Shown here one piece after another: positions 1 through 20,805 of a stretch of DNA of 64,000 bases. The notes under the pieces are model-generated. The model was given only the letters and a program-made list of their open reading frames with translations, did no database searches and was not told the DNA's origin. Origin of the DNA: Actinomycetota bacterium. Its GTDB lineage: Bacteria; Actinomycetota; Acidimicrobiia; Acidimicrobiales; SZUA-35. The translations under genes and the position numbers were made by a program. Numbering within the stretch: position 1 is the first letter of the stretch; each line of letters begins with the position of its first letter. The DNA is taken from positions 12,924 through 76,923 of the forward strand of contig JBCCFL010000019.1 in the NCBI GenBank assembly GCA_039029735.1, written 5' to 3'.

Positions 1-3000
1 GGTGCTGCGGACCGAGGCGATGTCAATCGTCTCGCTGTCGCCATCTCGGTTGTTCGAAATGTCGATCACCGGGAGGTCCTGGAGCGGCACGTCCTGAAGG
101 ATCTCGCCGCCACTGGTGTTCTCAGTGGCCTCGAGGGTCAGATCCGGCACCTCGGTGGGGTTCAACTGACGCAGCGCCGGCTGATCCGACACCGGCTGGG
201 CCGGTGGCCCGTAGACCACGAGGTCGTAGTCGGCGGGCAGGTCACTGAGCGACACGGCCAGGCGAGCCCCGGCCTGCAGGTCGATCCGGAAGAGATCCAC
301 ATCAGTGTCGCTGGCAATGTGGCTTGCGTAGATCGTGTTCGAGATCGCCGTGATCACGCCTGCGTCGCCGATGTCGTCGTTCGGCTCGAACGCCTGCGAC
401 ACACCGACCGATCCGGTGGCCGTGGCCTGCACGCCAGAGCCGGCGAGGCGACCGGTGGTAGTCACCGTCGACGTGCCGAGCGACAACGAGGGCACGAGAT
501 CGAACGAGACCACGTACTCACCGCCAACGTCCACGCCATTGAGGCTCCAGCTCAGCTGGTTGCCGGTGACGGTCGGCTCGCCAAAGCCATTCGGGCTGGC
601 GTTCGTGCTGATCTCGGTCAGCGTGGCCGTGTTGGGCACGTACTGGGCGTCGAGCGGGATGGTGGTAAAGATGTCGAGCGTGCGGGGCACACCAGAGTCG
701 CCACCGATCTCGAAGCCCGTGGAGAACGTAATCGGAGCCGAGGTCGAGTCGAGCTCGATGGCGCCGAGATCAACTTCAGCCCACTCGTAGGCCTCCACGC
801 CGACGAGGGCGAGGAGCAGATCGCCGAAGGTGAGGTCACCGTCGGTGCCATTGGCTACGAGCAGGTCGATCAGCTCAGCGATCGTGGTGCCGTTGTAGGT
901 GGTGAGCTCTTCGAGCGTGACATCCTGCCAGTCGCTGAAGTCGGCGAGCGTGGCCCCGCCCCAGTCGACGTCGCCTTGGCCGAGCGAGGGGTGGAAGTCG
1001 AGGATGTCGCCGAGGCGCAGCGTGCTGAGTGCGCCGAGATAGGGCCCGACCGGCTGGTTCACCGACGGGAGATCGCCGAGGATCATCCCGTCGAGCGAGC
1101 CGCCCTGGGCCACGAGGTCTTCGAGATCGACGAGGCCCTCAGCGGTCAGTTCGGCCTGAAGATCCGCCTCGTCCTCACCGGTGGCGGCGAGCAGGTCGGC
1201 CAAGGTGATCAGGGCCAGTGCCGCCGCACCAAGCTCGGTAAGCGTGGTGGAGTTGCGCTCCGGCACGCTCGGCAGCTCGGCCAAGGTCATGTCGTCGAAG
1301 GTCAAGAAATCGGCGAGCGTCGCCACCGTGCCCTGGCCGTCGATCTGGGCTCGGAGGTCGGCCTCGGAGAACCCACCGACGCCGACGAGGTCGCCGAACG
1401 TGATGCCGATGTCGAGGCCCTCGAAGTCGCCGATGGTGACCGTGGAGAGCAACGCACCGGCGTCCTGCGCGTCAGCCAAGGTGAAGTCGCCTTCGCAGTC
1501 GATCAGCGAGCAGTCGACGAAGGTGCCGATGGCGCCAACCGGAATCGCACCGACCGGGATCGCACCGACCGGGCTGGCCGCCAGGTCGATTGCGCCAACG
1601 GGAATGGCTCCGACGGGAATCGCGCCAACCGGAATGGCGCCCACAGGAATGGCGCCCACAGGAATGGCGCCCACGGGAATGGCGCCAACCGGAATGGCGC
1701 CCACAGGGATCGCACCCACCGGAATGGCGCCAACCGGGGTGGAGTCGATGTCGATGGCACCAACGGGGATCGCGCCCACGGGCGTGGAGGAGATCTCGGT
1801 GGTCTCGATGTCGATGGCACCAACGGGGATGGCACCAACCGGGATCGCACCAACCGGGATCGCACCAACCGGGATCGCACCGACCGGCGTGCCGGTGATG
1901 TCGATGGCACCAACCGGGATGGCGCCAACTGGTGAGGCGGCGACGCCGCCGTTGGCACTCAGTTCGGAGAGCTGGATGCCGCCGATGGTCTGGCCGGTCG
2001 GGCCAACGGGAATGGCTCCCACCGGCGTGCTGCCGACGTCGATCGCGCCGACGGGAATGGCCCCCACCGGGATCGCACCAACCGGGATCGCACCCACCGG
2101 GATGGCACCAACGGGCGCCCCCTGGATGAGGATGGCGCCAACGGGGATGGCACCCACCGGCGTACCGGCGATGTCGATGGCGCCCACGGGGATGGCCCCC
2201 ACCGGGATCGCACCGACGGGCACGTTGCGGATCGGGATGGCGCCAACGGGGATAGCGCCCACCGGGGTGCCCTGGATGGCGAGATCGATCAACGTGTCGC
2301 TGCTCGTGTCGGCCGCCGGGGTGGTGCTGCAGTTGTAGGTGGGGCTGATGTCGCCGAGCAGCGTGCACCAGTCCAGCCCGTCGGGCAGCGTGAGGTCGTC
2401 GAGCGTGGTGCTGGCCACGGCGATGGCGCCCACGGGGATCGCGCCGACGGGGGTGGCGCTGAGATCGAGCGTGCTGAGCTGGGCGTTGTCGAGATTGCCG
2501 GTGGAGATCGCATCGGCCAGAGTCACGTTCTGCAGCGGCAGGCCCTCGAAGTCGGTGCCGAGCAGCACCGGATCCCAGCCACCATCGATGATCACGTCCG
2601 ACAGCAGGATCGACTCCAGCAGGGGGCCGTCAAGGCCCAGGTCACCGATCGTGGTCTGGTCGAGGATCTCGCTGGGGTTGGTAGCGGTGACCGCGGCGTC
2701 CACCGAGTTGAGCGAGGTGCCCACGATGTTCTGCGAGCCGGTCCCGCCGTAGCCGTCCACCGCCGTTGGCGGCAGATCGGCCACTGAGATGCCAGTGGCG
2801 CCGGCGGTGACCGTTGGTGACCCTGGGGTGACGGTCACGCTGTCGATGGTGGAGACCACCGGCGTGCTGCCAGTCGGAATCGTGGTGGTGTAGGTGTAGG
2901 CGGCGCCACCCCTCTCACCGTTCTCGTTGTCGTCCCAGGGGGCTCCGATCACGATCTCGCCGCCAGTGATCGACACCGAGAAGCCGAAGCGTTGGTCGAA

Positions 3001-5247
3001 CAGGTTCCGGTCAGTCGCCTTGAACTCCGAGTCAAGGCTCCACAGGCCCGTGTCCGGATCACGCTTGATGATCGCGGCGCCACCGGTGCGGCCGTTGAGG
3101 CCGTCACCGTTGCCCTGGCCGGGGTGGCCGGCCACAACGATGTCGGTGTCAATCGAGAGATCGCCGGCTCCGAAGGCGTCAGAAACTCCTGGACTGGCCG
3201 ACTTGATCTTGACCGGGGCCCCGAAGAGGCCTGGGGCGGTCTGCTCATAGATCCACACGGCACCGGAGAAGTCCGCGTTGTCGGAGTCGTGCACGGCGAT
3301 GGCGAGCGTGTCGCCTTCGAGGTCAACGGAGTCGCCGAAGAAGAAGTCTTGGGTGGTGTTGGTGTCGGGGTTGGTCAAGGTGCTGTCGAGCATCCACCCG
3401 TCGATCGGGTCGTCGACGTACACGCCAACGGTGCCGAGGCCGTTGGGGTCGACGAAATCGCGATAGCTCACCACCATCACGTCACCCTCGACAGCGACGT
3501 CGTCGGTCTCCTCGGTCGCCCCGCCCGCGGGAAGCACCAAGGAGGTGTTGGCCACGATGTCGTAGACCCCGAACGAGGAGGTGTTCGAGCTCCCCGCGAC
3601 CAGGGTGGTTCCATCGAGGTCGATGGTGGTGAGATTCGTGCCGCCGCCGAGTGCCACGTTCACGTCGGTGACGAAGGCGTAGTCGCTTCCAGCAGCCGGG
3701 CGCTCGTAGATGTCCACCCGGTTGTCGTTGATCGAGCCCACAGCGAGTCGGTTGCCGTCCGTGGCGAGAAGCCCACCGAAGCGTCCACCGTTGTCGGGGT
3801 TGGGTGGTGTGAGCACCTGCTCGATCACCGTGTAGTTGCCGGCACCGTCGGCCGAGCGCACCTCGACGCGGCCGTCGTCGTCGTTGCCGAAGGGGTCGCC
3901 GACGAGCACCACGCCGTCGGCGGCGGCCACGGCCTGACCGTAGAACCGGCTGAGGGGGCCCTCGGTCGACACCGTCTTGTTGGCGGGCGCCGTGGGCTGG
4001 CGAATGTAGAACGGATACACGGCACCGCCGTTGGACTTCACCGGGTCGCCGGCAACGGGCGGGTCGATGTCGGCACCGATGGCCCCGGCCAGCAGGTACA
4101 CGCCCTCCTCGACGGTGCCGATGGTCTCACTGAAGATGGCGACGCTGTGACCGAGCTGGTCGTTGCTGGCGCCGTCGTAGGCGGTCAGGGCCTCCACCTC
4201 GGTCCACGTTCCGCCCACGTCTTCCATGACGTAGACCACGCCGCCGCCGACAATCGCCGGCGCACCGACGGCCAGCAGCCCCGACCTGGAGTCATAGTCG
4301 ATGTCGCGGCCGTAGGCGCCTTCGGTGGGCAGCGTGCTGGAGACGACCTTCTGCGGCGAGTTCGGCCCGGAACCGTCCACGTCGTAGACCCACACTGCGC
4401 CAGCCCCGGCGTGCCCCACGAAGAGCACGTCGGTGTCAGCGGCCAGTGATCGACCGAACTCATTGCCGGTGGTCGTGGTGGGTTCCGGGTTGGTCAGGGT
4501 GAAGTCGACGGCCGTGTTCCACGTGCCGCCGCTCTTCTTGTAGAAGTAGACGGATCCGTCGCCGTTGTCGGGGGCACCGACGGCGATGAAGGCCTCGTCG
4601 CCGCCACCACCGAAGTCGGGGGAGATCACCACGTCGTTGCGCTCGGTGGTGATCGTGGTGGGCACCACGAGCGTGGCCTCGGAGTTCCAGATGAAGCCCG
4701 TGGTGGTCTTGCGGAAGACCTCGGCCTCGGCCGCGCCCTGGCGCAAGATGACGGCCTCGTCGTCCTCGATGTCGACGGCCTCGGTGTTGCTCCGGGCGTA
4801 GGCCACCACGCTGGTGAACGGCGACGAGGCGTCGGGCCGCTCCCAGAACTGCAGGATGTTGTCGCCAGCCACCACCACGTTGTTGCCACTGATGGCAACG
4901 GCCTGGCCGTACTCGGCCTGATCGGACGGGGTCAGGGTGTCGAAGAACAAGGTCTGGATCACGGTCCAGAAGCCGTCGGTGTTCTGCAGGACGTAGGCCT
5001 CGCCGGGGCTGCCGAAGTTGTCGCGGGCGCCCACCACGGCGAAGTCGCCGTCGATGTCGATGTCTGCGCCGAAGTTGGACGGATCGGTGAAGTCGTTGGT
5101 GATCCGCTCCAGTGGCACCTCCGACGCCTCAACCGCACTGAGCGGCAGCACCGACAGCGTTGACGCGATCAGGGCGAGCGAGGCCCCGATGATCCAGAAC
5201 CGACGGCTACCCGCGCTGCGACGACGCGCACCAAGAACTGCCCTCAT
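1..5247 (-). CDS. Giant secreted/cell-surface protein. N-terminus is complete and the C-terminus runs off the window (>=1749 aa). Contains a signal peptide, FG-GAP/integrin-alpha-like repeats, a PVGAI pentapeptide array and a PPC (pre-peptidase C-terminal) domain
   Basis: Absent from the ORF track because there is no stop inside the window. My manual minus-strand translation from ATG 5247-5245 (GGAAGGG SD-like run ~10 nt upstream) stays open to base 1 (5247 nt = 1749 codons). N-terminus MRAVLGARRRSAGSRRFWIIGASLALIASTLSVLPLSAVEA is signal-peptide-like. FG-GAP-type units occur, e.g. FDQRFGFSVSITGGEIVIGAPWDDNENGERGGAAYTY (from nt 3000 downward). A PPC-like stretch FEPNDDIGDAGVI...DTDVDLFRIDLQAGARLAVSLSDLPADYDLVVYG lies at about nt 395-200. 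Confidence 0.85.
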   Translation of the reverse strand, partial: MRAVLGARRRSAGSRRFWIIGASLALIASTLSVLPLSAVEASEVPLERITNDFTDPSNFGADIDIDGDFAVVGARDNFGSPGEAYVLQNTDGFWTVIQTLFFDTLTPSDQAEYGQAVAISGNNVVVAGDNILQFWERPDASSPFTSVVAYARSNTEAVDIEDDEAVILRQGAAEAEVFRKTTTGFIWNSEATLVVPTTITTERNDVVISPDFGGGGDEAFIAVGAPDNGDGSVYFYKKSGGTWNTAVDFTLTNPEPTTTTGNEFGRSLAADTDVLFVGHAGAGAVWVYDVDGSGPNSPQKVVSSTLPTEGAYGRDIDYDSRSGLLAVGAPAIVGGGVVYVMEDVGGTWTEVEALTAYDGASNDQLGHSVAIFSETIGTVEEGVYLLAGAIGADIDPPVAGDPVKSNGGAVYPFYIRQPTAPANKTVSTEGPLSRFYGQAVAAADGVVLVGDPFGNDDDGRVEVRSADGAGNYTVIEQVLTPPNPDNGGRFGGLLATDGNRLAVGSINDNRVDIYERPAAGSDYAFVTDVNVALGGGTNLTTIDLDGTTLVAGSSNTSSFGVYDIVANTSLVLPAGGATEETDDVAVEGDVMVVSYRDFVDPNGLGTVGVYVDDPIDGWMLDSTLTNPDTNTTQDFFFGDSVDLEGDTLAIAVHDSDNADFSGAVWIYEQTAPGLFGAPVKIKSASPGVSDAFGAGDLSIDTDIVVAGHPGQGNGDGLNGRTGGAAIIKRDPDTGLWSLDSEFKATDRNLFDQRFGFSVSITGGEIVIGAPWDDNENGERGGAAYTYTTTIPTGSTPVVSTIDSVTVTPGSPTVTAGATGISVADLPPTAVDGYGGTGSQNIVGTSLNSVDAAVTATNPSEILDQTTIGDLGLDGPLLESILLSDVIIDGGWDPVLLGTDFEGLPLQNVTLADAISTGNLDNAQLSTLDLSATPVGAIPVGAIAVASTTLDDLTLPDGLDWCTLLGDISPTYNCSTTPAADTSSDTLIDLAIQGTPVGAIPVGAIPIRNVPVGAIPVGAIPVGAIDIAGTPVGAIPVGAILIQGAPVGAIPVGAIPVGAIPVGAIPVGAIDVGSTPVGAIPVGPTGQTIGGIQLSELSANGGVAASPVGAIPVGAIDITGTPVGAIPVGAIPVGAIPVGAIPVGAIDIETTEISSTPVGAIPVGAIDIDSTPVGAIPVGAIPVGAIPVGAIPVGAIPVGAIPVGAIPVGAIPVGAIPVGAIDLAASPVGAIPVGAIPVGAIGTFVDCSLIDCEGDFTLADAQDAGALLSTVTIGDFEGLDIGITFGDLVGVGGFSEADLRAQIDGQGTVATLADFLTFDDMTLAELPSVPERNSTTLTELGAAALALITLADLLAATGEDEADLQAELTAEGLVDLEDLVAQGGSLDGMILGDLPSVNQPVGPYLGALSTLRLGDILDFHPSLGQGDVDWGGATLADFSDWQDVTLEELTTYNGTTIAELIDLLVANGTDGDLTFGDLLLALVGVEAYEWAEVDLGAIELDSTSAPITFSTGFEIGGDSGVPRTLDIFTTIPLDAQYVPNTATLTEISTNASPNGFGEPTVTGNQLSWSLNGVDVGGEYVVSFDLVPSLSLGTSTVTTTGRLAGSGVQATATGSVGVSQAFEPNDDIGDAGVITAISNTIYASHIASDTDVDLFRIDLQAGARLAVSLSDLPADYDLVVYGPPAQPVSDQPALRQLNPTEVPDLTLEATENTSGGEILQDVPLQDLPVIDISNNRDGDSETIDIASVRST
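1528..2456 (-). repeat. Intragenic tandem array with 15-bp period, encoding ~37 copies of the pentapeptide P-V-G-A-I
   Basis: Minus-strand translation gives runs such as TPVGAIPVGAIPVGAIPVGAIPVGAIDIETT, plus one 10-copy run. Blocks of 2-10 units are joined by D-[IVL]-x-x-[ST] linkers. The periodicity also shows in the antisense ORF-track entry 1181..2338 as APTG[IM] repeats. Units differ mostly at synonymous positions (ccggttggcgccatt / cccgtgggcgccatt / ccggtgggtgcgatc). Confidence 0.9.
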
Positions 5248-8815: not shown

Positions 8816-10042
8816 GTGCCCCACACTCAACGTGGTGAGGGGGTGCCCCTATTGTGGGCGACCCACCCCGACGCCGACGCTTCGGGTATGACCGTCACCG
8901 GGCACTGGCCACCTCCTGTCGCCGACACCGTTTCGGAGTTGGCGCCGTCTGCGCCCATCGATCCCAGGCCACGACATCGCCGGCTGCTCCGTCGACGCCG
9001 GATCGTCGAGGCGGTACTCGTGCTCGGCCTGATAGCAGGCGCGCTCGCGTTCGACCGCTCACCGCTGTTCATCCTGCCGTTCGTGTTCGTGCTGGTGGTG
9101 CCCTTCGAGAAGCTCTTCCCCCGCCACCGGGGCCAACCGGTGCGTCGCCCTCAGGTCACCACGGATCTCAGCTACCTCCTGGCGGCTCCGGCTCTGAACA
9201 TCGCCACCGCGTCGGTCGCCATCGTGATCGGGATCGCATCGCTTGCCTGGATTCCCGGGCTGGCCCTGCGACCGGTGGTGGGGTTGATCCCCACCGTTGC
9301 GCTGCCGTTCGTGGGCTTCGTGCTCTTCGATGCCGTGTTCTACTGGGCGCATCGCTGGTCGCACGAGGTGCCGCTCCTGTGGCGCTTCCACGCCGTGCAC
9401 CACAGCACCGAACACCTCGATTGGGTGAGCGGGTTCCGGGTACATCCCCTCGACGGCGCCCTCGTGGCCCCGCCGTTCGTCTTGCTCGTGGCGGCCGGCT
9501 ACACCCCCGAGGTGGCGGGGGCCCTCGCAGTGATTCAGATCGCGCTCGGCATCTTCCTCCACGCCAACGTGCGATGGCGGCTGCGACCACTCCATCGCGT
9601 GGTGATGACACCCGAGTTCCATCACTGGCACCACACGAACGATCCCCAGGCGATCCACTCGAACTACGCCGCCTTCCTGCCGCTGTGGGATCAGCTGTTC
9701 GGCACCTACTTCATGCCCGCCGATCGACGGCCGCAGAACTACGGGATCGACGAGCCGATGCCGGCGGGGATGGTGGCGCAACTGCGCCACCCGTTCCGGG
9801 GGATCGGCAATCCGCTCGGCGGCATCCGTCGGCCCCTTTCCAGCGCGAGGTGGCTCGCCGGCCAGGTGGCGCTGGTGGTCCGCCAGATCGCCCGGTCGAC
9901 CACCAGGCCCCGCCACCAGCTCCCCACCGTGAGCAGCGCAGCGCGACGGCCCGCCCCGAACGCTGCACAGGCGACAGAGGCAGCACAGGCGACAGCGGCC
10001 ACCACGGCGCCGGAGGCGCTGACCTCAGAAGCTGTCGGGTAG
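8816..10042 (+). CDS. Fatty acid hydroxylase / sterol desaturase family membrane protein
   Basis: His-box motifs HRWSHE, HAVHHS and HHWHH occur in a polytopic membrane protein. The start is uncertain: GTG 8816 directly after the aminotransferase stop, or ATG 8888. The 3' end overlaps the convergent gene by 18 nt. Confidence 0.75.
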   Translation: MPHTQRGEGVPLLWATHPDADASGMTVTGHWPPPVADTVSELAPSAPIDPRPRHRRLLRRRRIVEAVLVLGLIAGALAFDRSPLFILPFVFVLVVPFEKLFPRHRGQPVRRPQVTTDLSYLLAAPALNIATASVAIVIGIASLAWIPGLALRPVVGLIPTVALPFVGFVLFDAVFYWAHRWSHEVPLLWRFHAVHHSTEHLDWVSGFRVHPLDGALVAPPFVLLVAAGYTPEVAGALAVIQIALGIFLHANVRWRLRPLHRVVMTPEFHHWHHTNDPQAIHSNYAAFLPLWDQLFGTYFMPADRRPQNYGIDEPMPAGMVAQLRHPFRGIGNPLGGIRRPLSSARWLAGQVALVVRQIARSTTRPRHQLPTVSSAARRPAPNAAQATEAAQATAATTAPEALTSEAVG

Positions 10043-12118
10043 GTCGCCGTGACCGACTCCCGGATCGGCATGGTCGACCTGGCCTCCGTTGGGCTCGGAC
10101 CGCTCGTCCCGGTTGAGATCGTTGAACTCTTGTTCCCGACGCCGGGCGTCGACCACGTCGGCCTCGCGTTGGCGTCGCTCGGCCTCGGCCTGGGCCTGGC
10201 GTTCTCGCTCCTGTTCGGCCCGTTCGATCTCTTGTGAGAGTTCGAACTCGGCGTCGGCCAGCTCGACCGCCGCCTCCTGTTCAGTGAACACACCGGCTGG
10301 GTCGCCCGTCTCACGAAGCTGCTCGCGGCGCAGCGCGTCGCGCCTGGCCAACAGCTCCTCGATCTCACGACGACGATCGGCGTCGATGGCGTCCGGCCCG
10401 ACGTAGGCGACACCAATGCTGCCGAAGGTGAAGGTGTTGCCGGTGAGGAACGACACGGCGGCATCGAGGCCCTTGGCCCGAGCGCTGGCGACACCGAGCA
10501 GGCTCCCTGCCGCTTCCCCTGCGGTGGTGGTGAGGAACCCGGCGTCGATGTCATCGGCCCGCAGATCGTCGAGATCGGCGATCTCGTTGTTGAGGGCATC
10601 GATGCGCCCTTCGAGCGCTGCGATGTCGTTCTTGGTTTCCTCGTCCAACGCAAAGCCCTCTTCGTCGGCGTCGGCGATCGCCCGGTCGAGCTGTTCCTGG
10701 CGGATCTGCTCCTGTTGGGCCCGGAGTTCGCGTATCTCCTCGTCGTACTCCTCCACCTGAGCGCGGGCCGCATAGTCCTCGGCCACGGCGATCCCGCCGA
10801 CCACCACTGCGGCCGCGACCCCGGGAGGGCCCAGGAACGACGCGCCGAACCCGATCGTGCCGCTGATCACGCCGAACTCGAACGATTCGCCCTCCCGTTC
10901 GCTCCGGGCCGCTGCGGTCGTGTCGATGCCCGCACCGATCTCGCTTAGTTCGTTCGCCAATTCGGCATCGGTCAGGCCACTGAGGCCGGCCGACGGGTCG
11001 GTCGAGGTCTCCGTTGAGGCCGATGCGAGCACCACGGAGCCATCGGTCGTCACGTCCACCGTGCCTGGCCCGGCGAACGCGGGGATTGCGGTGAGATCGA
11101 GCGGCTCGCCGGTCCGGCGGAAACGGGCTTCGGCGGCGATGGCCACGGCCCGGCTCACCTCGGCTTCGGAGAGCCCGGACGCCTCGCTCGTTGCGGCGAT
11201 CGAGATCTCGCCAGAGGCGAACCGGTCGAGGTTGTGATCGATCGCCCGGGTGGTGGCGGTGACGGCCAGCCCCTCATAGAGCCGCCGATTCACGAAGTCG
11301 ACGGCGAACCCAACCGGGGTGCGCCGATTGTCGATGGGCTCGGTTCGCGTCCGTTTCCGGTCCTCCTTGTCGCTACTGCTGTAGTAGGTCTCGGTGAAGG
11401 TGACACGCACCTCACCGCCCCCGAGCGCCCCTGCGAGCAGGCGGAGATCGCGGGCTTGATCGTCGGAGAGTCGGCCTTCGTCGATCGGCGTGCCCGACAG
11501 GAACGCCGGCAGATAGAACGCGTCGAGGCGATCCACCACGTCGGCCGGCAGAGGGGCCCCGGCGAGGTCGAGCAGGTCGGCGGTGGAGTCGATGCGCAGG
11601 TCGTCCACATCTGCGAGCGCGGCGAGCACGTGATCGCGGCGGATCACCCCGTTGAGGGCAAGCGCCTGGATCTGGAGGTTCAGCACCGCTCGGGGTACGC
11701 CGAGGGCGGCGGCGATCTCGTCGAGATCAGCCTCGGCGGCCACCCCTCGGGCGAAGAGCGCATCGAGCAGGGGTGTGGTCTCGTCGGGCCCGGCAGCGAG
11801 GGTGCCGTCTGCGATCGACGTGGCAAGCGCCTCCGCCACGGCCTCGCTCTCCGCGAGGGTCAGACCGAGGCGCACCACGAGATCGGCAGGGTCGACGGTG
11901 AATCCCTCAGCCACGTCGGCCCGCACCGTGAGCACGACCCCGACCCGCTGGAGGCCGAGGCCAACATCGTCGAGCGTGATCGGCACTGCCGACTCCAACT
12001 GCGACAGCGCGAGCGCAGCGGTGACGTCGCGCTGGATGCCGTCAGTCTGCTCCCCGGCTCCGGTCAACGCCGCAGCCAAGGCCCGGGTGGCGACAGGATC
12101 CAATCCGACGAACGCCAT
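10025..12118 (-). CDS. Hypothetical protein (~697 aa) with a central hydrophobic segment and a long acidic/basic coiled-coil C-terminal half
   Basis: ORF 10025..12166(-). I place the start at ATG 12118 because AAGGAG sits 6 nt upstream (cgaacAAGGAGcgcaccATG). N-terminus is MAFVGLDPVATRALAAALTGAG. There is a GFGASFLGPPGVAAAVVVGGIAVA hydrophobic stretch. The C-terminus is E/R/Q/A-rich (EIRELRAQQEQIRQEQLDRA..., ERAEQERERQAQAEAERRQREAD). I recognise no family. Confidence 0.6.
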   Translation of the reverse strand: MAFVGLDPVATRALAAALTGAGEQTDGIQRDVTAALALSQLESAVPITLDDVGLGLQRVGVVLTVRADVAEGFTVDPADLVVRLGLTLAESEAVAEALATSIADGTLAAGPDETTPLLDALFARGVAAEADLDEIAAALGVPRAVLNLQIQALALNGVIRRDHVLAALADVDDLRIDSTADLLDLAGAPLPADVVDRLDAFYLPAFLSGTPIDEGRLSDDQARDLRLLAGALGGGEVRVTFTETYYSSSDKEDRKRTRTEPIDNRRTPVGFAVDFVNRRLYEGLAVTATTRAIDHNLDRFASGEISIAATSEASGLSEAEVSRAVAIAAEARFRRTGEPLDLTAIPAFAGPGTVDVTTDGSVVLASASTETSTDPSAGLSGLTDAELANELSEIGAGIDTTAAARSEREGESFEFGVISGTIGFGASFLGPPGVAAAVVVGGIAVAEDYAARAQVEEYDEEIRELRAQQEQIRQEQLDRAIADADEEGFALDEETKNDIAALEGRIDALNNEIADLDDLRADDIDAGFLTTTAGEAAGSLLGVASARAKGLDAAVSFLTGNTFTFGSIGVAYVGPDAIDADRRREIEELLARRDALRREQLRETGDPAGVFTEQEAAVELADAEFELSQEIERAEQERERQAQAEAERRQREADVVDARRREQEFNDLNRDERSEPNGGQVDHADPGVGHGDLPDSF

Positions 12119-12269
12119 GGTGCGCTCCTTGTTCGTGTTCGTGCCAGGGTTCGAGCCCGATGGCACCAGTTGGTCGAGCCGTTTTCGCCGTCACCGGGGC
12201 GATCGGTTCCCGATTGGTGAGGATCGGCCTCGGATTCACCCCGGGGGCTCCCCGCTAGAGTCCCTCGGC

Positions 12270-14101: not shown

Positions 14102-15121
14102 TCACGCAGACCAGCGGGATCGGCGGGTGGCGTCGGCGCCCAGCGATGCCCGTCGCAGGGCCCGTTCGAGCACATGCGGATCGCCGAGGCGCCGCCGGAG
14201 CTGATGCTCCAGACCGGCGATCGGGTACAGGTTCTGCGGCGCCCGGGCCTCACGGTGCGGCTCGCTGGCGAAACGGGGAAGCGCGGCGCTGATGGCATCG
14301 GCGCGGGCGGCAGCATCGTTGACGCCTGCGCCGTCGACCCTGGGCAGCTCGACGCGCACCACGCCGTCGAGCGCATGGGCCTGGTTCACCGGCAGGCGGA
14401 GATACCACGACCACCGGGGCCTCGGGTCGCCGATGGCGAACAACGGGGTGCGCTCCCCCGGGCCGAGCCGGGCGACCACCGCCTGGGTGGGCCCGTCGAG
14501 ATACTGGATCCGTTGGGTCTTCACGTACCCGGCACCGTTCAGGTGGCGGCGAGAGCGGAGGGGGCCGTCGTAGACGACGAGCTCACCCTCGGTGGCCAAC
14601 GCCTCGGAGACGGCCTCCTCGAGATCGGCCATGGCGTCGTTGATGGCCTGGTAGGTGGCCGACTCCTCCACGCCTCGGACAGGTCGAACCCGGTACCGGA
14701 TGGGTTCACCGGCCCCAGTGGCAGCGAGAACCTCGTCGCCGAGCCCTGGATGGTCACCAGCGCCACCGGGAGCGTCGCGTCGTTGCACGGCTTCCGGTGA
14801 GGTGAACACGGCCCGCTCCACCCGGGTGTCGATCACCTCGGCTCGGCCGGGAATGCACCGCACCGCACCAGCCCCGATCGTGGTGCACAGGCCCAACGCC
14901 GAGCCCTGGGGAGTATCGATCCACAGCCGACAGTCGATGCGTTGCACACCGTCGACGAACACGAGCTCGGAGGGCGCCGATCCCGGGTGCGGCCGGATTG
15001 GGGCCCACGTCTCGGGATCGACCTCGACGGACGCGTCGACCGTCGCTCCTTGGACCTCGTCGAGATCGTCGCGGGAGGCAGAACCGTAACCGGGCTCCCA
15101 GGTCTCAACGGTGAACCCCAT
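14102..15121 (-). CDS. Putative NurA-like nuclease, last gene of the herA-sbcD-sbcC operon
   Basis: 339-aa ORF whose ATG (15121) overlaps the sbcC stop by 1 nt (TGATG). The call rests mainly on operon position. An SELVFVDGVQRID stretch resembles the NurA N-terminal xxDGS acidic motif. The fold was not verified. Confidence 0.4.
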   Translation of the reverse strand: MGFTVETWEPGYGSASRDDLDEVQGATVDASVEVDPETWAPIRPHPGSAPSELVFVDGVQRIDCRLWIDTPQGSALGLCTTIGAGAVRCIPGRAEVIDTRVERAVFTSPEAVQRRDAPGGAGDHPGLGDEVLAATGAGEPIRYRVRPVRGVEESATYQAINDAMADLEEAVSEALATEGELVVYDGPLRSRRHLNGAGYVKTQRIQYLDGPTQAVVARLGPGERTPLFAIGDPRPRWSWYLRLPVNQAHALDGVVRVELPRVDGAGVNDAAARADAISAALPRFASEPHREARAPQNLYPIAGLEHQLRRRLGDPHVLERALRRASLGADATRRSRWSA

Positions 15122-17610
15122 CAGCGATCCACCCGGTCGATGGTCGAGGTGCCGCCGGCTGATCGCACCTCGAATCGCACCGGCATGCGCTCGGCCAGGT
15201 CGCGCACATGGGTGACCACGGTGACGAGTCGGCCTGCCGCCGACAGCTCCTCGATGGCCGAGGCCAACACGTCGAGCGTTTCGGGGTCGAGCGTTCCGAA
15301 TCCCTCGTCGAGGAAGATCGACTCCAGACGAGGGCCGTCGGTGGTGGCCAGCTCAGCGATCGACTCCGCCAACGCCAGCGCCAACGACAACGAGGCGAGG
15401 AAGATCTCGCCGCCCGACAGCGTGCGCACGTCTCGCCGTTCATCGGCGTTGCCGTGGTCGCGCACGGCGAACGAACCGTCGACCACCTCGAGCGAGTAGC
15501 GGCCGTTCGACAGCTCGTGAAGGCGCAACGTGGCGTGATGCACGAGATGGTCGAGCGCCTCCTGCAGCAGCCACCGCTCGAACCCGTTGGCTGCAAGGTG
15601 CCGGCCGAGCGACTCGTGCACCGTCTGCTCCTCGTCGAGCTCGGCGGCCTGACGCTCCAACTCGGTGCGGCGGCCGATGCCAGCATCGAGGGCCGCCATC
15701 TCGGCGTCGAGCCGGGCCCGAGCCGCCGCGGCCAAGGGAGCCAGGCGAGCCACGTCGTCGCTGTCAGCGGTGTCGAGATCGACGTCGGTGTCGAGGCCGG
15801 CGGCCGAGGCCTGAGCCCAGAGATCGGTGGCCAGTTTCGACCGGGCGGCCCGCAGTTCGACGCCGGCCGCCTCGATCTCGGCCAGCTGCTCCCCCAGAGC
15901 GGTCCGTCGGTCGGTCGCCCAGACCGTGAGGCGGGCCCAGGCGTTGGCCAGGGGCTGGTCGGGATCCCAGGCGGGCGCGCCGAGGGCGGTGACACGGTCG
16001 CGCTGGGCCACGAACTGGGGCCGGAGATCGGCCTCGCGGCCACTGATCGCATCGACGGCCGCTCTGGCCCTGCCGGCCGCGGTGTCGGCGCGGTCGACGG
16101 CGGCTGCGGCGGCGGACGATGCGACGGCGGCGGCCTCGGCCCGCTGGAGGTCGCCGGTCACCCGGTCGAGGGTGCTGGCGCCGGCCGCAAGTTCATCCGC
16201 CGTGAGCTGACCGGCAAGGCGCTCGTCGATCTCGGTGAGTTCAGCCCGGTGGCGGACAGCGGCGGCGGCGGCCGCATCAGTGCGCCCGTGCGCCCGAGCC
16301 GCAGCCACCGTGGCATCGTCGAGCGCCACGGCCACCGTGGCCACCAACTCGTCAGCGGTGGCGAGCGCGTCGGGCGAGGCCGTGGCTGGTACCTCGTGCA
16401 CCGTTTGTTCGCACACCGGGCACGCCTCACCGGCTCGTAGCTGATGCACCCACACGGCGGCGTCGGCCGCCTGACGGTGAGCGGCCAGCGCCGCCCGGGC
16501 GACCTCCATCTCCCCGGTGAGCCGGACCTGCTCGGCCTGCGCCGTGGTGGCGTCGGCCTCGGCCGTGCCGCGCTCGGCATCCACGTCGCGAATCTGGCTT
16601 ACGAGCGCCTCCCGCCGCACCAGCAGATCAGCGGTTCGGGCGAGCGTGGCCGCGTCGCCGGCTGCGTCGGCGGCCACCCGACACTCCTGCAGCTCGGTTC
16701 GAGCGGCGGCCAGGTCGGCCTCCGCGGCCACGGCGGCCAGGCGTGCCTGCTCCAGTTCGGTGTGGACGGCCGCCGCATGATCGGGCACGGCAACCGCGGC
16801 GAGGTCGGCGATGGCCGCTTCGGTGGTGCGGTATGTGGCGCGCCGGTCGCTCAGCTCCACATCGTGGCGCTCGATCTCGGCGAGCTGATCGCCGAGCGAG
16901 CCGGCGAACCCGTCGACCCGCTCCCCCTGCTCCGCCAGGGCGAGGCGAGCCGCGGGAGTGGCGGCCGCCAGGCGTTCGAGCTCGGCCCGCTGCGCGTCCA
17001 TCGCGTAGCCCGCACGAGTGGCCCGCTCTCGGGCCTGAGCCGCCATGTCGGCATAGAGGCCGAGATCGAGCAGGCGCCTCAGCAGGCGTTGGCGATTGGC
17101 CGGGTCGTCGGTGAGGAACTCGGCGAAGGCCCCCTGGGGGAGCACGATCGTGCGGGTGAACTGGGAGAAGTCGAGGCCGATCAAGGCTTGGACCTCGGCG
17201 TCCATCTCGCGCACCGATCCGGCGAGCACGGTGGTGGGGCCATCAGGGTCTGGCCCGTGCCAGCGCTCCAACCGAGCTTCCCGGGTCTTCGCTCGGGGTG
17301 GCGACCCTGGCGAGGCGTTCGACTCCGCTCGCCGCACCACCCGCACGGCGCTGTAGCGGGCACCAGCCAGCTCGAAATCGAAGCGCACCCGGGCCTCGAC
17401 CGCCAGCTGGCTGATCACTGGCGCCACCAGTGACGGATTGTCGTAGCGAGCCACGGAGCCGTAGAGGGCGAAGGTGATGGCGTCGATCACCGTGGACTTG
17501 CCCGATCCCGTTGGGCCCACGAGGGCGACGAGATCGAGGCCTGCGAAGTCGATCTCGGTGCGATCCCGGAAGGCACCGAACCCTTCGAGGTCGACTCGGA
17601 GCGGCCTCAC
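15121..17610 (-). CDS. sbcC: SbcC/Rad50-family DNA repair ATPase (829 aa)
   Basis: Walker A LVGPTGSGKST near the N-terminus. Long Ala/Glu/Arg-rich coiled coils with a central CxxC zinc hook (AGEACPVCEQ). C-terminal signature and Walker B: LSGGEIFLASLSLALALAE...IFLDEGFGTLD. The start overlaps the sbcD stop by 4 nt. Confidence 0.9.
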   Translation of the reverse strand: MRPLRVDLEGFGAFRDRTEIDFAGLDLVALVGPTGSGKSTVIDAITFALYGSVARYDNPSLVAPVISQLAVEARVRFDFELAGARYSAVRVVRRAESNASPGSPPRAKTREARLERWHGPDPDGPTTVLAGSVREMDAEVQALIGLDFSQFTRTIVLPQGAFAEFLTDDPANRQRLLRRLLDLGLYADMAAQARERATRAGYAMDAQRAELERLAAATPAARLALAEQGERVDGFAGSLGDQLAEIERHDVELSDRRATYRTTEAAIADLAAVAVPDHAAAVHTELEQARLAAVAAEADLAAARTELQECRVAADAAGDAATLARTADLLVRREALVSQIRDVDAERGTAEADATTAQAEQVRLTGEMEVARAALAAHRQAADAAVWVHQLRAGEACPVCEQTVHEVPATASPDALATADELVATVAVALDDATVAAARAHGRTDAAAAAAVRHRAELTEIDERLAGQLTADELAAGASTLDRVTGDLQRAEAAAVASSAAAAAVDRADTAAGRARAAVDAISGREADLRPQFVAQRDRVTALGAPAWDPDQPLANAWARLTVWATDRRTALGEQLAEIEAAGVELRAARSKLATDLWAQASAAGLDTDVDLDTADSDDVARLAPLAAAARARLDAEMAALDAGIGRRTELERQAAELDEEQTVHESLGRHLAANGFERWLLQEALDHLVHHATLRLHELSNGRYSLEVVDGSFAVRDHGNADERRDVRTLSGGEIFLASLSLALALAESIAELATTDGPRLESIFLDEGFGTLDPETLDVLASAIEELSAAGRLVTVVTHVRDLAERMPVRFEVRSAGGTSTIDRVDR

Positions 17611-18917
17611 AGGCCCATGCTCAGTTGCTCGGCGTCGGCGCTCTCGGCCGCCGACGAGGGGTCGGTGCGCTCGGGCTCGGCTGGTTCCGCCCCGTCGGCC
17701 ACCTCAGGGGTGACGTGCTCGTCGTGGAGCGCAGTGAACGCCGCCACCAGGCGGGGGTCGTTCACCTCTCGCTCGGTGAGGTACTCGGCGAAGAGCTCGG
17801 TGGGGCTCAGCCCATCGCGGCGGGCTCGCACCTGGGCGCGCTGGTCGCCCAACACCCGAGACTCGATCCGTACATCGACCACGGCAGGCCCGATGGCCGC
17901 TCGCACCTCGTCGGCGAGGCCGGCTCGGGCTTGCTCGGTGAGGCGCACCCGAATCCATGGCACGCCGGCATCGCCTCCATTGGCCACCGCCTCCTCGCCC
18001 GCTCCTCCCGAGCCGGAGCCGGGGAAGGCTCCGAGCTCACGAGCCTGCGCTCGCACGTCGTCGAGGGTGCCGACCAAGGTGACGAGCGATCGACCGGACC
18101 GCAGAGGCACCGCTGTCACCTTGGCCGGCAGACCGGGTTCGCAGGTTGCGAGGTTGATCTGCTTGATCTGGGCTTCTTCACCGAAGTCGAGCGCCAACGG
18201 AGAGCCGCAGTAGTGCACGGCCATTGGCGCCGGAAGCTGCTGAGGGCGGTGAAGATGGCCCAGGGCAACGTAGTTCGCCGTGGTGGGGAGATCGGGAATG
18301 GTCACGCCGTACTCGTCGGCCAGGTGGGCCGACCGCTCTCCCCCGCCGGCCTTGGCGCCGGTGACGAACAGGTGGGCGGCGAGCAGATTCACCGAGTCGC
18401 CGTCGAACCCGGTGGCCAGCGCTGCCATCACAGCCCTAATCCGCTCGGCGTAGGTCTGCACGTTCCGGAAGGCGGCCGAGTCCATGAGGTCGGCGGCTCG
18501 GATGATCGCCCGCTGGGACTGGAACGGCAACAGGGCCACGTTCACCGGCACGCCGCCGGCACTGAGCCGCAGCACCCCACCGTCATCGGGGCGCCGCAGG
18601 GCGGCCGCCATCGTGATGCGGCCGAGCTGCAGCGGCCGAGCCACAGCATCGAGGCGCCGCGGGTTGTCGTGATTGCCGGCGACAACCACCACCGGGGCGA
18701 CCTCCGCCAGATCGAGCAGGGCGTCGTAGACGAGCGCCTCACTCTCGGCGGTCGGCGCCGCAGTGTCGAACAGGTCGCCGACCACGAGCGACAGATCGAC
18801 CTCTTCGGCCCGGGCGACCGACACGATCTCGGCGAGCACGGCGCGATGCTCGCCAGCACGACTGTGGCCGCGGATCGCCTTCCCGACGTGCCAGTCAGAG
18901 GTGTGGAGCAGCTTCAT
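17607..18917 (-). CDS. sbcD: SbcD/Mre11-family nuclease
   Basis: MKLLHTSDWHVGK..., VVGDLFD and VVVAGNHDNP are calcineurin-like phosphoesterase motifs. I prefer ATG 18917; the ORF-track start 18926 is a GTG three codons upstream. Confidence 0.9.
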   Translation of the reverse strand: MKLLHTSDWHVGKAIRGHSRAGEHRAVLAEIVSVARAEEVDLSLVVGDLFDTAAPTAESEALVYDALLDLAEVAPVVVVAGNHDNPRRLDAVARPLQLGRITMAAALRRPDDGGVLRLSAGGVPVNVALLPFQSQRAIIRAADLMDSAAFRNVQTYAERIRAVMAALATGFDGDSVNLLAAHLFVTGAKAGGGERSAHLADEYGVTIPDLPTTANYVALGHLHRPQQLPAPMAVHYCGSPLALDFGEEAQIKQINLATCEPGLPAKVTAVPLRSGRSLVTLVGTLDDVRAQARELGAFPGSGSGGAGEEAVANGGDAGVPWIRVRLTEQARAGLADEVRAAIGPAVVDVRIESRVLGDQRAQVRARRDGLSPTELFAEYLTEREVNDPRLVAAFTALHDEHVTPEVADGAEPAEPERTDPSSAAESADAEQLSMGL

Positions 18918-18950
18918 GGCCGCCACCGCACTGCGACGAGGCCGACCATG

Positions 18951-20726: not shown

Positions 20727-20805
20727 CAACGCTAGGCGGGCCCAGTGACACTCGGGCTGATACTTCCTCCCCAAACTCGCCAAACCCAGGGGCAGTGGCG
20801 ACCGG

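What the first reader, a model, noticed from the sequence alone, without database searches (positions are those of the whole stretch)
1528..2456. About 37 tandem PVGAI pentapeptides: a repeat that does not look like any repeat family I know
Within the giant secreted protein, the minus strand encodes P-V-G-A-I repeated in blocks of 2, 3, 5 and 10 units. The blocks are joined by short D-[IVL]-x-x-[ST] linkers, e.g. ...PVGAIPVGAIDITGTPVGAIPVGAI.... This is not the classical A(D/N)LXX pentapeptide repeat, and it is not a collagen, PE/PPE or PT-linker pattern.

The DNA copies differ mostly at synonymous sites. The array therefore appears to be maintained at the protein level, rather than being a recent slippage product.

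The strict 5-residue period with Pro and Gly at fixed positions suggests a regular solenoid or extended stalk. It sits between an FG-GAP propeller region and a C-terminal PPC domain.
Basis: seen in the sequence. Interest (0 to 1): 0.65.

Follow-up and report, generated by a model that had tools for sequence, protein, structure and literature searches.

The report
Proline-type pentapeptide repeat array (PVGAI)
A giant secreted actinobacterial protein carries 37 letter-perfect copies of the five-residue unit PVGAI; it belongs to a large, unnamed family in which each protein has its own uniform P-hydrophobic-x-x-hydrophobic unit, and the pattern looks like a proline-bearing cousin of the known pentapeptide-repeat proteins.

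Summary
The minus strand (window 1528-2451) encodes exactly 37 perfect PVGAI units in blocks of 1 to 10, joined mostly by 5-residue linkers. There are 24 different 15-mers, and every difference between them is synonymous.

An orthologue with 54.5% identity elsewhere keeps the units 96% identical and has almost the same layout. Synonymous sites between the two are saturated, so this is strong protein-level selection and not recent slippage.

An exhaustive search finds 286 relatives at E<=1e-10. Of the best 150, 134 carry such arrays, with 64 different main units (PLGSI, PIGSI, PLRAI and others). The consensus is P-[LVI]-x-[SA]-[I] with D-[LIV]-x-G-[ST] linkers.

Read as I-P-V-G-A / I-D-I-A-G, the pattern matches the classical A(D/N)LXX scheme. 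The family profile hits solved pentapeptide-repeat proteins (E 7e-7) and LRRs, and a permuted control hits neither. One homologue passes Pfam Pentapeptide_4. This protein hits no Pentapeptide model.

AlphaFold gave no confident fold for the array.

Best reading (about 0.5): a fixed-length, regular solenoid-like rod that acts as a spacer. Main rival (about 0.3): a flexible, elastin-like spacer.

The parts
1..5247 (-). Partial CDS of a giant secreted protein. 1749 aa lie in the window; the full length is 2993 aa (P0004 / MEM7339570.1). The C-terminal 1244 aa lie beyond the window start.
   Evidence: Open frame. 100% match to P0004. NCBI name.
5125..5247 (-). N-terminal signal peptide (MRAVLGARRRSAGSRRFWIIGASLALIASTLSVLPLSAVEA). 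The SRRFW stretch looks like a twin-arginine motif.
   Evidence: Read from the translation. This is an inference; no signal-peptide predictor was available.
2878..5070 (-). FG-GAP repeat (propeller-type) region.
   Evidence: Pfam FG-GAP_2, E 1.7e-26, 6 stretches, the last at aa 736-786. The boundaries are approximate.
2452..2610 (-). Conserved pre-array module (..GGWDPVLLGTDFEGLPLQNVTL..LDLSAT).
   Evidence: Aligned in relatives over query positions 1-621. Visible in P0005, P0010 and L003.
2422..2451 (-). First block: 2 PVGAI units (aa 933-942).
2266..2421 (-). 52-aa insert with two conserved cysteines (..DWCTLLGDISPTYNC..LIDLAIQGT), aa 943-994. In P0006 it recurs before every array.
1996..2265 (-). 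Array segment of 18 pentads (aa 995-1084): 13 PVGAI units, linkers PIRNV, DIAGT, LIQGA and DVGST, and one degenerate unit PVGPT.
1933..1995 (-). 21-aa insert GQTIGGIQLSELSANGGVAAS (aa 1085-1105), conserved in relatives (..GGVAAS).
1528..1932 (-). Array segment of 27 pentads (aa 1106-1240): 22 PVGAI units in blocks of 2, 5, 2, 10 and 3, with linkers DITGT, DIETTEISST, DIDST and DLAAS.
748..1527 (-). Conserved post-array module. It starts GTFVDCSLIDC..FTLADAQDAGALL (two invariant Cys) and continues with repeated TLxDL motifs.
   Evidence: Alignment A1, invariant C11/C16. AF2 pLDDT is 80-92 for about the first 65 residues of this module (model residues 278-340; the confident stretch begins inside the array at about residue 251). 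No PDB fold match and no Pfam family.
1..303 (-). Start of a PPC (pre-peptidase C-terminal) domain, aa 1649 onward, cut by the window edge.
   Evidence: Pfam PPC: 11.4 bits in the window fragment, 18.4 bits in P0004, 24 bits in L003. All are below the 25.9 cut-off.

Best explanation
The PVGAI array is a proline-type pentapeptide-repeat array. It is the local member of a large, so far unnamed family found in giant secreted proteins, mostly from Acidimicrobiia-like Actinomycetota.

Read in the register I-P-V-G-A, each pentad has two inward-type hydrophobic residues (positions i-2 and i), a proline where classical A(D/N)LXX repeats have Asp/Asn (i-1), and two small, lineage-variable residues (i+1, i+2). 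The 'linkers' are pentads of the same register (I-D-I-A-G, then T-P-V-G-A) that carry the classical Asp.

I infer that units and linkers together build one continuous, regular, rod-like solenoid of fixed length, in segments of 18 and 27 pentads. The successive five-residue faces would stack on each other, in the manner of pentapeptide-repeat (Rfr) or LRR solenoids, possibly with three pentads (15 residues) per turn.

The rod would act as a rigid spacer. It would hold the N-terminal FG-GAP propeller at a set distance from the C-terminal PPC / C25-like peptidase / PKD / RTX part.

Stacking of equivalent residues from neighbouring units would explain why all units of one protein stay identical while the unit drifts between lineages.

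Shown: the array, its selection, the family, the pattern-level similarity to PRPs and LRRs, and the conserved length. Inferred: the folded solenoid state, the number of pentads per turn and the spacer role.
For: 1. Purifying selection.
- 37 of 37 units are identical in protein, with 24 distinct DNA versions.
- Against orthologue L003 the units are 96% identical, compared with 54.5% in 1304 other aligned columns.
- Third-position identity of orthologous units (0.42) is about the same as for random unit pairs (0.40).

2. Fixed geometry.
- The array spans of the window and L003 align 325 to 323 aa with a single 2-aa indel.
- In relatives with 50-69% identity the segments keep 18±1 and 27±1 pentads by hand count of the layouts. 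Individual pentads switch between unit and linker, and the unit changes (PVGAI, PIGAI, PIGSI, PVGAV).
- Short linkers are 5 or 10 aa, so the register is kept.

3. Family pattern (134 proteins).
- P is invariant. Position 2 is L/V/I/F, position 5 is I/V/F/L, and positions 3-4 are small or polar and variable.
- The linker consensus D-[LIV]-x-[GAS]-[ST] does not depend on the unit sequence.

4. Similarity to known solenoids.
- The family profile hits synthetic and natural pentapeptide-repeat proteins (4yfo E 6.8e-7, 2j8k 2e-4, DotG 1.7e-3) and LGR4 LRRs (3e-6). The P/D column aligns to D/N and the L column to L.
- The consensus 15-mer repeat hits the same proteins. A within-pentad permuted control does not.
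- P0133 passes Pfam Pentapeptide_4 (43 bits, above 38).
- JGI annotates P0029 as a pentapeptide-repeat protein.

5. AlphaFold2 with a 22-sequence alignment.
- It models the last ~5 pentads next to the flank at pLDDT ~83-85, with one bridge plus one short turn per five residues.

6. Three-pentad periodicity.
- Linker placement shows a 3-pentad periodicity: conditional frequency is 0.34, 0.27 and 0.31 at lags 3, 9 and 12, against 0.15-0.20 at most other lags; lag 6 (0.22) is no higher than lag 7 (0.23).
- In P0020, PLASI and PLHSI units alternate in 15-residue super-units.
Against: - AlphaFold2 gave pLDDT 33-41 for the bulk of the array, both without and with an alignment. Classical pentapeptide-repeat proteins are usually modelled confidently (own knowledge).
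- The window's own array hits no Pfam Pentapeptide or LRR model.
- hhalign of the family alignment against one PRP sequence found nothing.
- Ile at i-2, where Rfr proteins have Ala, would overpack a standard 20-residue square coil. A proline in every 3-residue strand also costs a backbone hydrogen bond (own knowledge).
- Family members with Arg or Asp at position 3 (PLRAI, PLDAI) would stack like charges.
- Linker spacing is not restricted to multiples of 3 or 4 pentads.
- The 3-pentad signal could simply reflect 45-nt DNA duplications.
- The spacer role is inferred from domain order only.
Confidence: 0.5

Rival explanations
1. The array is an intrinsically disordered, elastin-like or otherwise flexible hydrophobic spacer. 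It would be an entropic spring or tether between the propeller and the protease part. Its sequence would be kept because of bulk properties (Pro + Gly content, hydrophobicity) and not because of a fold.
For: - AlphaFold2 pLDDT is 33-41 over more than 200 residues in two runs.
- The composition is only P, V, G, A and I, like elastomeric proteins (VPGVG-type). It sits at about the Pro/Gly level that is said to separate elastomers from amyloids (own knowledge of Rauscher et al. 2006, not checked here).
- The only Pfam similarity of the window's array is a sub-threshold periodic-proline match to Extensin_1 (27.6 bits against 105).
- The linker-less SPFGI and PFGAS arrays of relatives look young and slippage-prone at DNA level.
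Against: - Bulk-property selection does not predict 37 of 37 identical units, or 96% identity against 54.5% in folded domains.
- It does not predict a family-wide linker consensus that keeps the 5-residue register.
- It does not predict pentad counts conserved to ±1 in 50-69% identical relatives.
- It does not predict pattern-specific hits to solenoid proteins that a permuted control loses.
- There is no Pro-Gly dipeptide, the hallmark of elastin-like units.
Confidence: 0.3
2. The array is a display of identical short motifs that are each read by something else. The reader could be copies of the same array on neighbouring molecules (a homotypic zipper for aggregation or self-recognition, with a lineage-specific unit) or a dedicated binding or modifying partner, in the way the RNA polymerase II CTD heptads are read.
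For: - Units are strictly uniform within a protein, but there are 64 different main units among 134 relatives, varying mostly at positions 3-4.
- In close relatives the whole array has switched unit (V to I, A to S) while keeping its layout.
- The surface-type positions are under as strong a constraint as the hydrophobic ones.
Against: - There is no candidate partner or modifying enzyme next to the gene. The neighbours are a MaoC dehydratase, AzlC, an aminotransferase, a fatty-acid hydroxylase and SbcCD.
- There is no experimental hint of aggregation.
- Uniformity can equally come from stacking inside one solenoid.
- This reading is compatible with, and not exclusive of, a folded rod.
Confidence: 0.12
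3. The array is a recent slippage product, an assembly artefact or a mis-framed region, and has no selected function.
For: - TRF finds 15/45/135-nt periodicity.
- Related long-read MAG assemblies carry frameshifts inside their arrays (L002 has the array in three frames).
Against: - There are 24 distinct 15-mers with saturated synonymous sites and no replacement change.
- Codon diversity is higher than expected from the gene's own usage (z 3.1; 0 of 2000 simulations reach it).
- The frame is open for 1755 codons.
- An independent genome (L003) has the same array and layout.
- There are 286 relatives at E<=1e-10.
Confidence: 0.02

Closest known systems
Pentapeptide repeat proteins (Rfr fold; Pfam clan Pentapeptide: PF00805, PF13599, PF13576; e.g. 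MfpA, Qnr, NP275/276, synthetic 'beta1' SynRFR)
   Same: - Tandem 5-residue period.
- Hydrophobic residues at i-2 and i, and variable i+1/i+2.
- The linker pentads (I-D-I-A-G) fit A(D/N)LXX almost literally.
- The family profile and the consensus repeat hit these proteins specifically.
- One homologue passes PF13599.
   Different: - Proline replaces Asp/Asn at i-1 in every unit.
- i-2 is Ile/Val instead of Ala.
- The window's array hits no Pentapeptide HMM.
- The units of one protein are letter-identical, which classical PRPs never are.
- The quadrilateral beta-helix fold is not confirmed.
- The context is a giant extracellular protein, not a small cytoplasmic DNA mimic.
Leucine-rich repeats (LxxLxLxxNxL; e.g. 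LGR4, VLRs, bacterial LRR 8z5u)
   Same: - The stretch L-G-S-I-D-L-A-G-T-P-L (unit end + linker + unit start) reproduces LxxLxLxx(N/T)xL.
- The profile hits LGR4 (E 3e-6), VLR (4.5e-4) and 8z5u (1.7e-3).
   Different: - The commonest super-unit is 15 residues, below the ~19-30 residues of known LRRs (own knowledge).
- Long runs of pure units lack the Asn/Thr position.
- There is no Pfam LRR hit for this protein. LRR_1 reaches E 0.0026 in one of 22 relatives.
Elastin-like and other proline-periodic structural repeats (VPGVG; plant extensin/PRP PPVYK pentapeptides)
   Same: Five-residue period with a fixed Pro; Val, Gly, Ala and Ile composition; location in an extracellular structural protein.
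   Different: - There is no Pro-Gly turn motif.
- Extensin_1 scores 20-31 bits against a 105-bit cut-off.
- Exact unit identity, register-keeping linkers and a conserved length are not features of those families.
Stalk repeats of Gram-positive surface proteins (Ser-Asp repeats of Clf/Sdr proteins, serine-rich repeat adhesins)
   Same: - A long, uniform short-period array lies between functional domains of a surface protein.
- The array is kept at protein level with mixed codons. Relatives mix TCN and AGY serine codons inside units, as SD repeats do (own knowledge).
   Different: Different chemistry (apolar here, not Ser/Asp), no known glycosylation, and a different period and taxon. The resemblance is functional only and was not tested here.

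Membership tests
Pentapeptide repeat family (Pfam clan Pentapeptide / Rfr fold) | Tandem repeats with a strict 5-residue period | tested here: met
   37 perfect units. The linkers are 5 or 10 aa and keep the register.
Pentapeptide repeat family (Pfam clan Pentapeptide / Rfr fold) | Consensus A(D/N)LXX: small residue at i-2, Asp/Asn at i-1, Leu/Phe at i | tested here: not met
   The units read I-P-V-G-A: Ile at i-2, Pro at i-1 and Val at i. Only the linker pentads (I-D-I-A-G and similar) fit the consensus. The hydrophobic spacing (i-2, i) is shared.
Pentapeptide repeat family (Pfam clan Pentapeptide / Rfr fold) | Match to a Pfam Pentapeptide HMM above the gathering score | tested here: not met
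   No Pentapeptide hit for the window protein at E<=1, nor for its 370-aa array segment at E<=10. Among relatives, P0133 scores 43 bits against a cut-off of 38 and P0029 scores 30 bits.
Pentapeptide repeat family (Pfam clan Pentapeptide / Rfr fold) | Detectable sequence similarity to proteins with a solved Rfr fold | tested here: inconclusive
   For: family profile against 4yfo E 6.8e-7, 2j8k 2e-4 and others; consensus repeat 1.3e-6; the permuted control finds none. Against: the window's own sequence finds no PRP, and hhalign gives probability 0.25%.
Pentapeptide repeat family (Pfam clan Pentapeptide / Rfr fold) | Right-handed quadrilateral beta-helix, 4 pentads per coil | tested here: inconclusive
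   AF2 pLDDT is 33-41 for the array. Only the last ~5 pentads are confident, and no coordinates could be inspected. No PDB fold match. Linker spacing favours 3 pentads over 4.
Leucine-rich repeat | LxxLxLxxNxL segment recurring with a period of about 19-30 residues | tested here: not met
   The motif is present across linkers, but the period is 15, 20, 30 or 55 residues in this protein and 15 is commonest in the family. No Pfam LRR hit.
Elastin-like polypeptide (VPGXG) | A Pro-Gly dipeptide in each pentapeptide | tested here: not met
   The unit is P-V-G-A-I. In the family, position 2 is always hydrophobic.
Extensin_1 (PF02095) | Pfam gathering score of 105 bits | tested here: not met
   19.8-27.6 bits. 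This is a periodic-proline match only.
Unnamed P-hydrophobic-x-x-hydrophobic array family of giant FG-GAP / PPC / C25-like proteins (defined here) | Pre-array GGW..LPLQ.VTL module, WC...C insert, uniform P-pentads with D-[LIV]-x-x-[ST] linkers, and a post-array VDCxL[IV]DC..TLGDA..AGAL module | tested here: met
   All these elements are present in the window protein and in P0005, P0007-P0010, P0020, P0022, P0034, L003 and others.

The most novel reading that the evidence does not exclude
The arrays form a new kind of beta-solenoid built from proline-containing pentads. It would have about three pentads (15 residues) per turn and so be distinct from the four-sided Rfr fold. Inter-unit stacking, or homotypic array-to-array contact, would force all units of a protein to co-evolve. 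The unit sequence would then become a lineage-specific 'barcode' (64 variants seen), possibly used for self-recognition or surface-lattice assembly of these giant proteins.
Probability: 0.15. Interest if true: 0.85.

Novelty: new variant of a known kind. Interest (0 to 1): 0.66.

Why it matters
If the reading is right, this extends the pentapeptide-repeat/solenoid world to a large proline-bearing class that current domain libraries miss. About 860 residues of this protein (aa 787-1648) carry no significant Pfam or NCBIfam annotation, only sub-threshold matches.

The family also shows an unusually clean evolutionary pattern. Units are letter-identical within a protein despite saturated synonymous divergence and a conserved array layout, yet the unit differs between lineages. 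That makes it a natural system for asking how repeat homogeneity is maintained without DNA homogeneity: through selection for stacking or self-interaction, or through gene conversion.

Idealised, length-defined natural repeat rods are also of interest as scaffolds for protein design.

Practically, these arrays break long-read assemblies and gene calls in MAGs, so recognising them improves annotation of giant surface proteins in Acidimicrobiia.

Tried and rejected
- The word-index homology search with the array plus flanks found only 3 proteins. With the flank alone it found none, and it missed even the identical database protein. The exhaustive HMMER search was needed.
- AlphaFold2 on the single sequence gave pLDDT 36, which is uninformative. 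With a 22-sequence alignment the array stayed at 33-41.
- Foldseek of that model against the PDB gave no match.
- hhalign of the family alignment against one synthetic PRP sequence gave probability 0.25%.
- NCBIfam gave no hit.
- Literature searches for the repeat strings, for pentapeptide repeats in Acidimicrobiia or Ilumatobacter, and for proline-type solenoids found nothing relevant. The paper citing PDB 8z5u concerns a Vibrio flagellar motor.
- Polyprotein or released-peptide idea, and substrate for the in-cis C25-like peptidase: rejected. Most units have no Arg/Lys cleavage site, the linkers keep the structural register, and the linker-less relatives have nothing to cut at. This is argument only.
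- Operon partner (hydroxylase or glycosyltransferase): none nearby.
- Several top 'homologues' are spurious low-complexity matches (PVQSS, PKGAL, PQGTR, PTNTM, PIEET, PIDEV, PTGDV) and were excluded from the family statistics.
Full report
**1. What is there**

The minus strand is open from the ATG at window 5247 to the window start, giving at least 1749 codons. The product is identical to residues 1-1749 of a 2993-aa database protein. That protein is P0004 = NCBI MEM7339570.1, 'hypothetical protein' from an Actinomycetota MAG.

It starts with a signal peptide that has an SRRFW, Tat-like stretch (read). It carries FG-GAP_2 repeats up to about aa 786 (E 1.7e-26). From aa 1649 there is a weak PPC domain.

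Beyond the window, P0004 continues with a C25-like region, Big_7/PKD domains and six RTX calcium-binding repeats. Peptidase_C25 reaches 36.5 bits in the homologue L005, 26 bits in P0006, 25 in P0020 and 19 in L003. Residues 787-1648 match nothing significant in Pfam or NCBIfam.

**2. The observation**

- PVGAI occurs exactly 37 times between aa 933 and 1240, which is window 1528-2451.
- The layout is [2] - 52-aa two-cysteine insert - [2 PIRNV 3 DIAGT 2 LIQGA 5 DVGST 1 PVGPT] - 21-aa insert - [2 DITGT 5 DIETTEISST 2 DIDST 10 DLAAS 3].
- This gives segments of 2, 18 and 27 pentads in which every short linker is 5 or 10 residues.
- The 37 units use 24 different 15-mers. Mean pairwise difference is 0.57 at third codon positions and 0 at first and second positions.
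- TRF sees periods of 15, 45, 60 and 135 nt.
- The motif occurs nowhere else in the window.

Only the end coordinate is 5 nt too generous.

**3. Selection, not slippage**

A genome scan with the conserved post-array module found L003 (Actinomycetota MAG JBCCGJ010000261), which has the same PVGAI unit.

- The two array spans align 325 to 323 residues with a single 2-aa indel. Pentad counts are preserved even where a unit and a linker have swapped places (ours [2 PIRNV 3] against [3 PIESL 2]; ours [10] against [5 PIESI 4]).
- Amino-acid identity is 96% in the units. It is 54.5% in 1304 other aligned columns and 56% in linkers and inserts.
- Third-position identity of orthologous units (0.42) equals that of arbitrary unit pairs (0.40), so synonymous sites are saturated.
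- Codon diversity inside the array exceeds what the gene's own codon usage predicts: 0.566 against 0.469, z 3.1, with 0 of 2000 simulations reaching it. L003 gives z 2.1.
- Rare T-ending codons are enriched (GTT 43% against 8%, GGT 41% against 18%, ATT 30% against 9%), and GC3 is 0.73 against 0.88.

The array is therefore old. It is kept letter-perfect by purifying selection and is, if anything, scrambled at the DNA level.

By contrast, the linker-less SPFGI and PFGAS arrays of more distant relatives (L005, L006) have less codon diversity than expected (z -2.9 and -3.7). They look younger or more homogenised.

**4. A large family**

The word-index search almost missed the family. The exhaustive HMMER search with aa 880-1500 found 1261 proteins at E<=1e-3, 286 at E<=1e-10 and 82 at E<=1e-30.

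- Of the best 150 cluster representatives, eight obvious low-complexity false positives were removed. Of the rest, 134 carry at least 8 in-register P-pentads.
- There are 64 different main units: PLGSI (15 proteins), PVGSI, PLGAI, PLSSI, PISAI, PIGSI, PLRAI, PLHSI, PLDAI, PVNQL and others.
- Position 1 is P in 134 of 134. Position 2 is L73/V24/I23/F8. Position 3 is G72/S28/R13/A8/N8. Position 4 is S69/A45. Position 5 is I88/V15/F9/T9/L8.
- The median share of the main unit within a protein is 0.82, and it is at least 0.9 in 46 proteins.
- The 626 five-residue linkers have their own consensus, D-[L/I/V]-x-[G/A/S]-[S/T], whatever the unit. The commonest block is two units (279), then three (114).
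- True members share the pre-array GGW..LPLQ.VTL module, the WC...C insert and the post-array VDCxL[IV]DC..TLGDA..AGAL module with two invariant cysteines. In P0006 the insert is repeated before each of more than 12 arrays, for 103 units in total.
- Named sources are Actinomycetota, Acidimicrobiaceae and Ilumatobacter MAGs.

Close relatives (50-69% identity) keep segments of 18±1 and 27±1 pentads by my hand count of the layouts printed (P0011 is truncated inside its third segment). Meanwhile the unit changes as a whole (PVGAI, PIGAI, PIGSI, PVGAV, PIGAV), and individual pentads flip between 'unit' and 'linker'.

**5. Relation to known repeats**

Read in the register hydrophobic-P-hydrophobic-x-x, the unit is I-P-V-G-A. 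The linker with its neighbours is I-D-I-A-G / T-P-V-G-A. This has the hydrophobic spacing of the classical A(D/N)LXX pentapeptide repeat, with Pro in place of Asp/Asn and with the classical Asp appearing in the linkers. The same stretch also reads LxxLxLxx(T/S)xL, the conserved segment of LRRs.

Tests in favour of a relation:
- A profile of 22 family segments (A3) hits synthetic and natural pentapeptide-repeat proteins in the PDB: 4yfo E 6.8e-7, 4yc5 2.4e-5, NP275-276 2e-4, DotG 1.7e-3, plus All3740, Alr5209, Rfr and Qnr more weakly. P/D aligns to D/N, L to L and I to A. It also hits LGR4 LRRs at 3e-6.
- The consensus repeat (IDLAGTPLGSIPLGS)x8 gives the same hits: 4yfo 1.3e-6 and VLR 4.5e-4.
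- A control permuted within each pentad, with the same composition and period, hits none of them.
- The homologue P0133 (unit PLRNI) passes Pfam Pentapeptide_4 at 43 bits against a cut-off of 38. P0029 (PLRAV) scores 30 bits, and JGI calls it 'YjbI with pentapeptide repeats'.

Tests against a relation:
- The window's own array hits no Pentapeptide or LRR model.
- Its only PDB sequence hit is an LRR protein at E 1.7e-3.
- hhalign of A3 against one PRP sequence found nothing.

I conclude that the array shares the design of pentapeptide-repeat/LRR solenoids. Formal membership of the Pentapeptide clan is not established.

**6. Structure**

- AlphaFold2 on the single sequence gave pLDDT 36.
- With the 22-sequence alignment the array stayed at 33-41. 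The last ~5 pentads and roughly the first 65 residues of the post-array module reached 80-92.
- In that confident stretch there is one bridge plus one short helical turn per five residues.
- Foldseek found no PDB match.

The fold is therefore unresolved.

Indirect arguments for a regular folded rod:
- the register-keeping linkers with a conserved consensus of their own;
- pentad counts conserved to ±1;
- conservation of two hydrophobic positions and the proline, against variable positions 3-4;
- a 3-pentad periodicity of linker placement (0.34, 0.27 and 0.31 at lags 3, 9 and 12, against 0.15-0.20 at most other lags, though lag 6 at 0.22 does not exceed lag 7 at 0.23);
- 15-residue [linker-PLASI-PLHSI] super-units in P0020.

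Arguments against:
- the low pLDDT;
- bulky Ile at the position that is Ala in Rfr coils, and a proline in every short strand (own knowledge);
- the like-charge stacks that PLRAI or PLDAI units would make.

**7. Mechanism and verdict**

Most likely (about 0.5): units and linkers form one continuous solenoid-like rod of defined length, which spaces the FG-GAP propeller from the PPC/C25-like/PKD/RTX part. Stacking of equivalent residues would explain the within-protein uniformity.

Main rival (about 0.3): a flexible, elastin-like hydrophobic spacer. This fits the AlphaFold result and the composition. It does not explain the letter-perfect conservation, the conserved length or the pattern-specific solenoid hits.

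A third reading (about 0.12): the uniform units are read by a partner or by each other, as a homotypic, lineage-specific zipper. No partner gene lies nearby.

An artefact or recent slippage is excluded for practical purposes.

No paper in the searchable library describes these arrays. I rate it a new variant of a known kind and of good interest, mainly for the family-wide pattern of uniform units within a protein and different units between lineages.

Noticed in passing
window 1528-2451 (minus strand), compared with the rest of the CDS 1-5247: Codon usage inside the array shifts toward rare T-ending codons (GTT 43% against 8%, GGT 41% against 18%, ATT 30% against 9%; GC3 0.73 against 0.88). 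Codon diversity exceeds expectation (z 3.1). This suggests selection against DNA-level repetitiveness, or a local strain on the tRNA supply.
   Followed up: partly
window 748-1527 (minus strand), aa 1241-1500: The post-array module has two invariant cysteines (VDCSLIDC) and repeated TLxDL motifs. It has no Pfam family. Roughly its first 65 residues were modelled confidently by AlphaFold2 (pLDDT 80-92) as short helix/bridge repeats with no Foldseek match in the PDB. It may be an undescribed domain in its own right.
   Followed up: partly
beyond the window start (P0004 aa 1750-2993); L003, L005, P0006, P0020: The same protein continues with a region resembling Peptidase_C25 (a gingipain-like His ... 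GCHxG motif; 19-36.5 bits in homologues), then Big_7/PKD domains and six RTX calcium-binding repeats. So the array sits inside a putative giant surface protease/adhesin.
   Followed up: partly
L002 9000-10200 and L001 4285-14306: In two long-read MAG assemblies the homologous giant genes are broken by frameshifts. The PIHSI array of L002 is read in all three frames, and the L001 gene is split into three calls. These are probably assembly errors in repeats, which truncate the database proteins P0001 and P0002.
   Followed up: partly
L001 11122-11422; L005 and L006 arrays: Serine in the SPFGI and PFGAS units is encoded by both TCN and AGY codon families within one array. Those codons are not connected by a single synonymous step.
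   Followed up: no
P0003 (JGI MFS transporter), C-terminal tail: An unrelated DHA3-family MFS transporter ends in a degenerate G-A-T-P-x repeat that includes IPVGAIPVGA. It was picked up only through the repeat and is probably an independent low-complexity tail.
   Followed up: no
window 5125-5247 (minus strand): The signal peptide contains SRRFW, which resembles a twin-arginine (Tat) motif. This is unusual for a protein of ~3000 aa that also ends in RTX repeats.
   Followed up: no
window 10025-12166 (-) and 18951-20783 (-): Two long ORFs with coding-like GC3 (713 aa and 610 aa) have no Pfam match at E<=1e-5. The ORFs at 15121-17610 and 17607-18926 look like SbcC and SbcD.
   Followed up: no
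method note: The word-index protein search missed the 100%-identical database protein and almost the whole family. Its 8000-candidate limit was probably filled by low-complexity word sharers. Only the exhaustive HMMER search revealed the family.
   Followed up: yes
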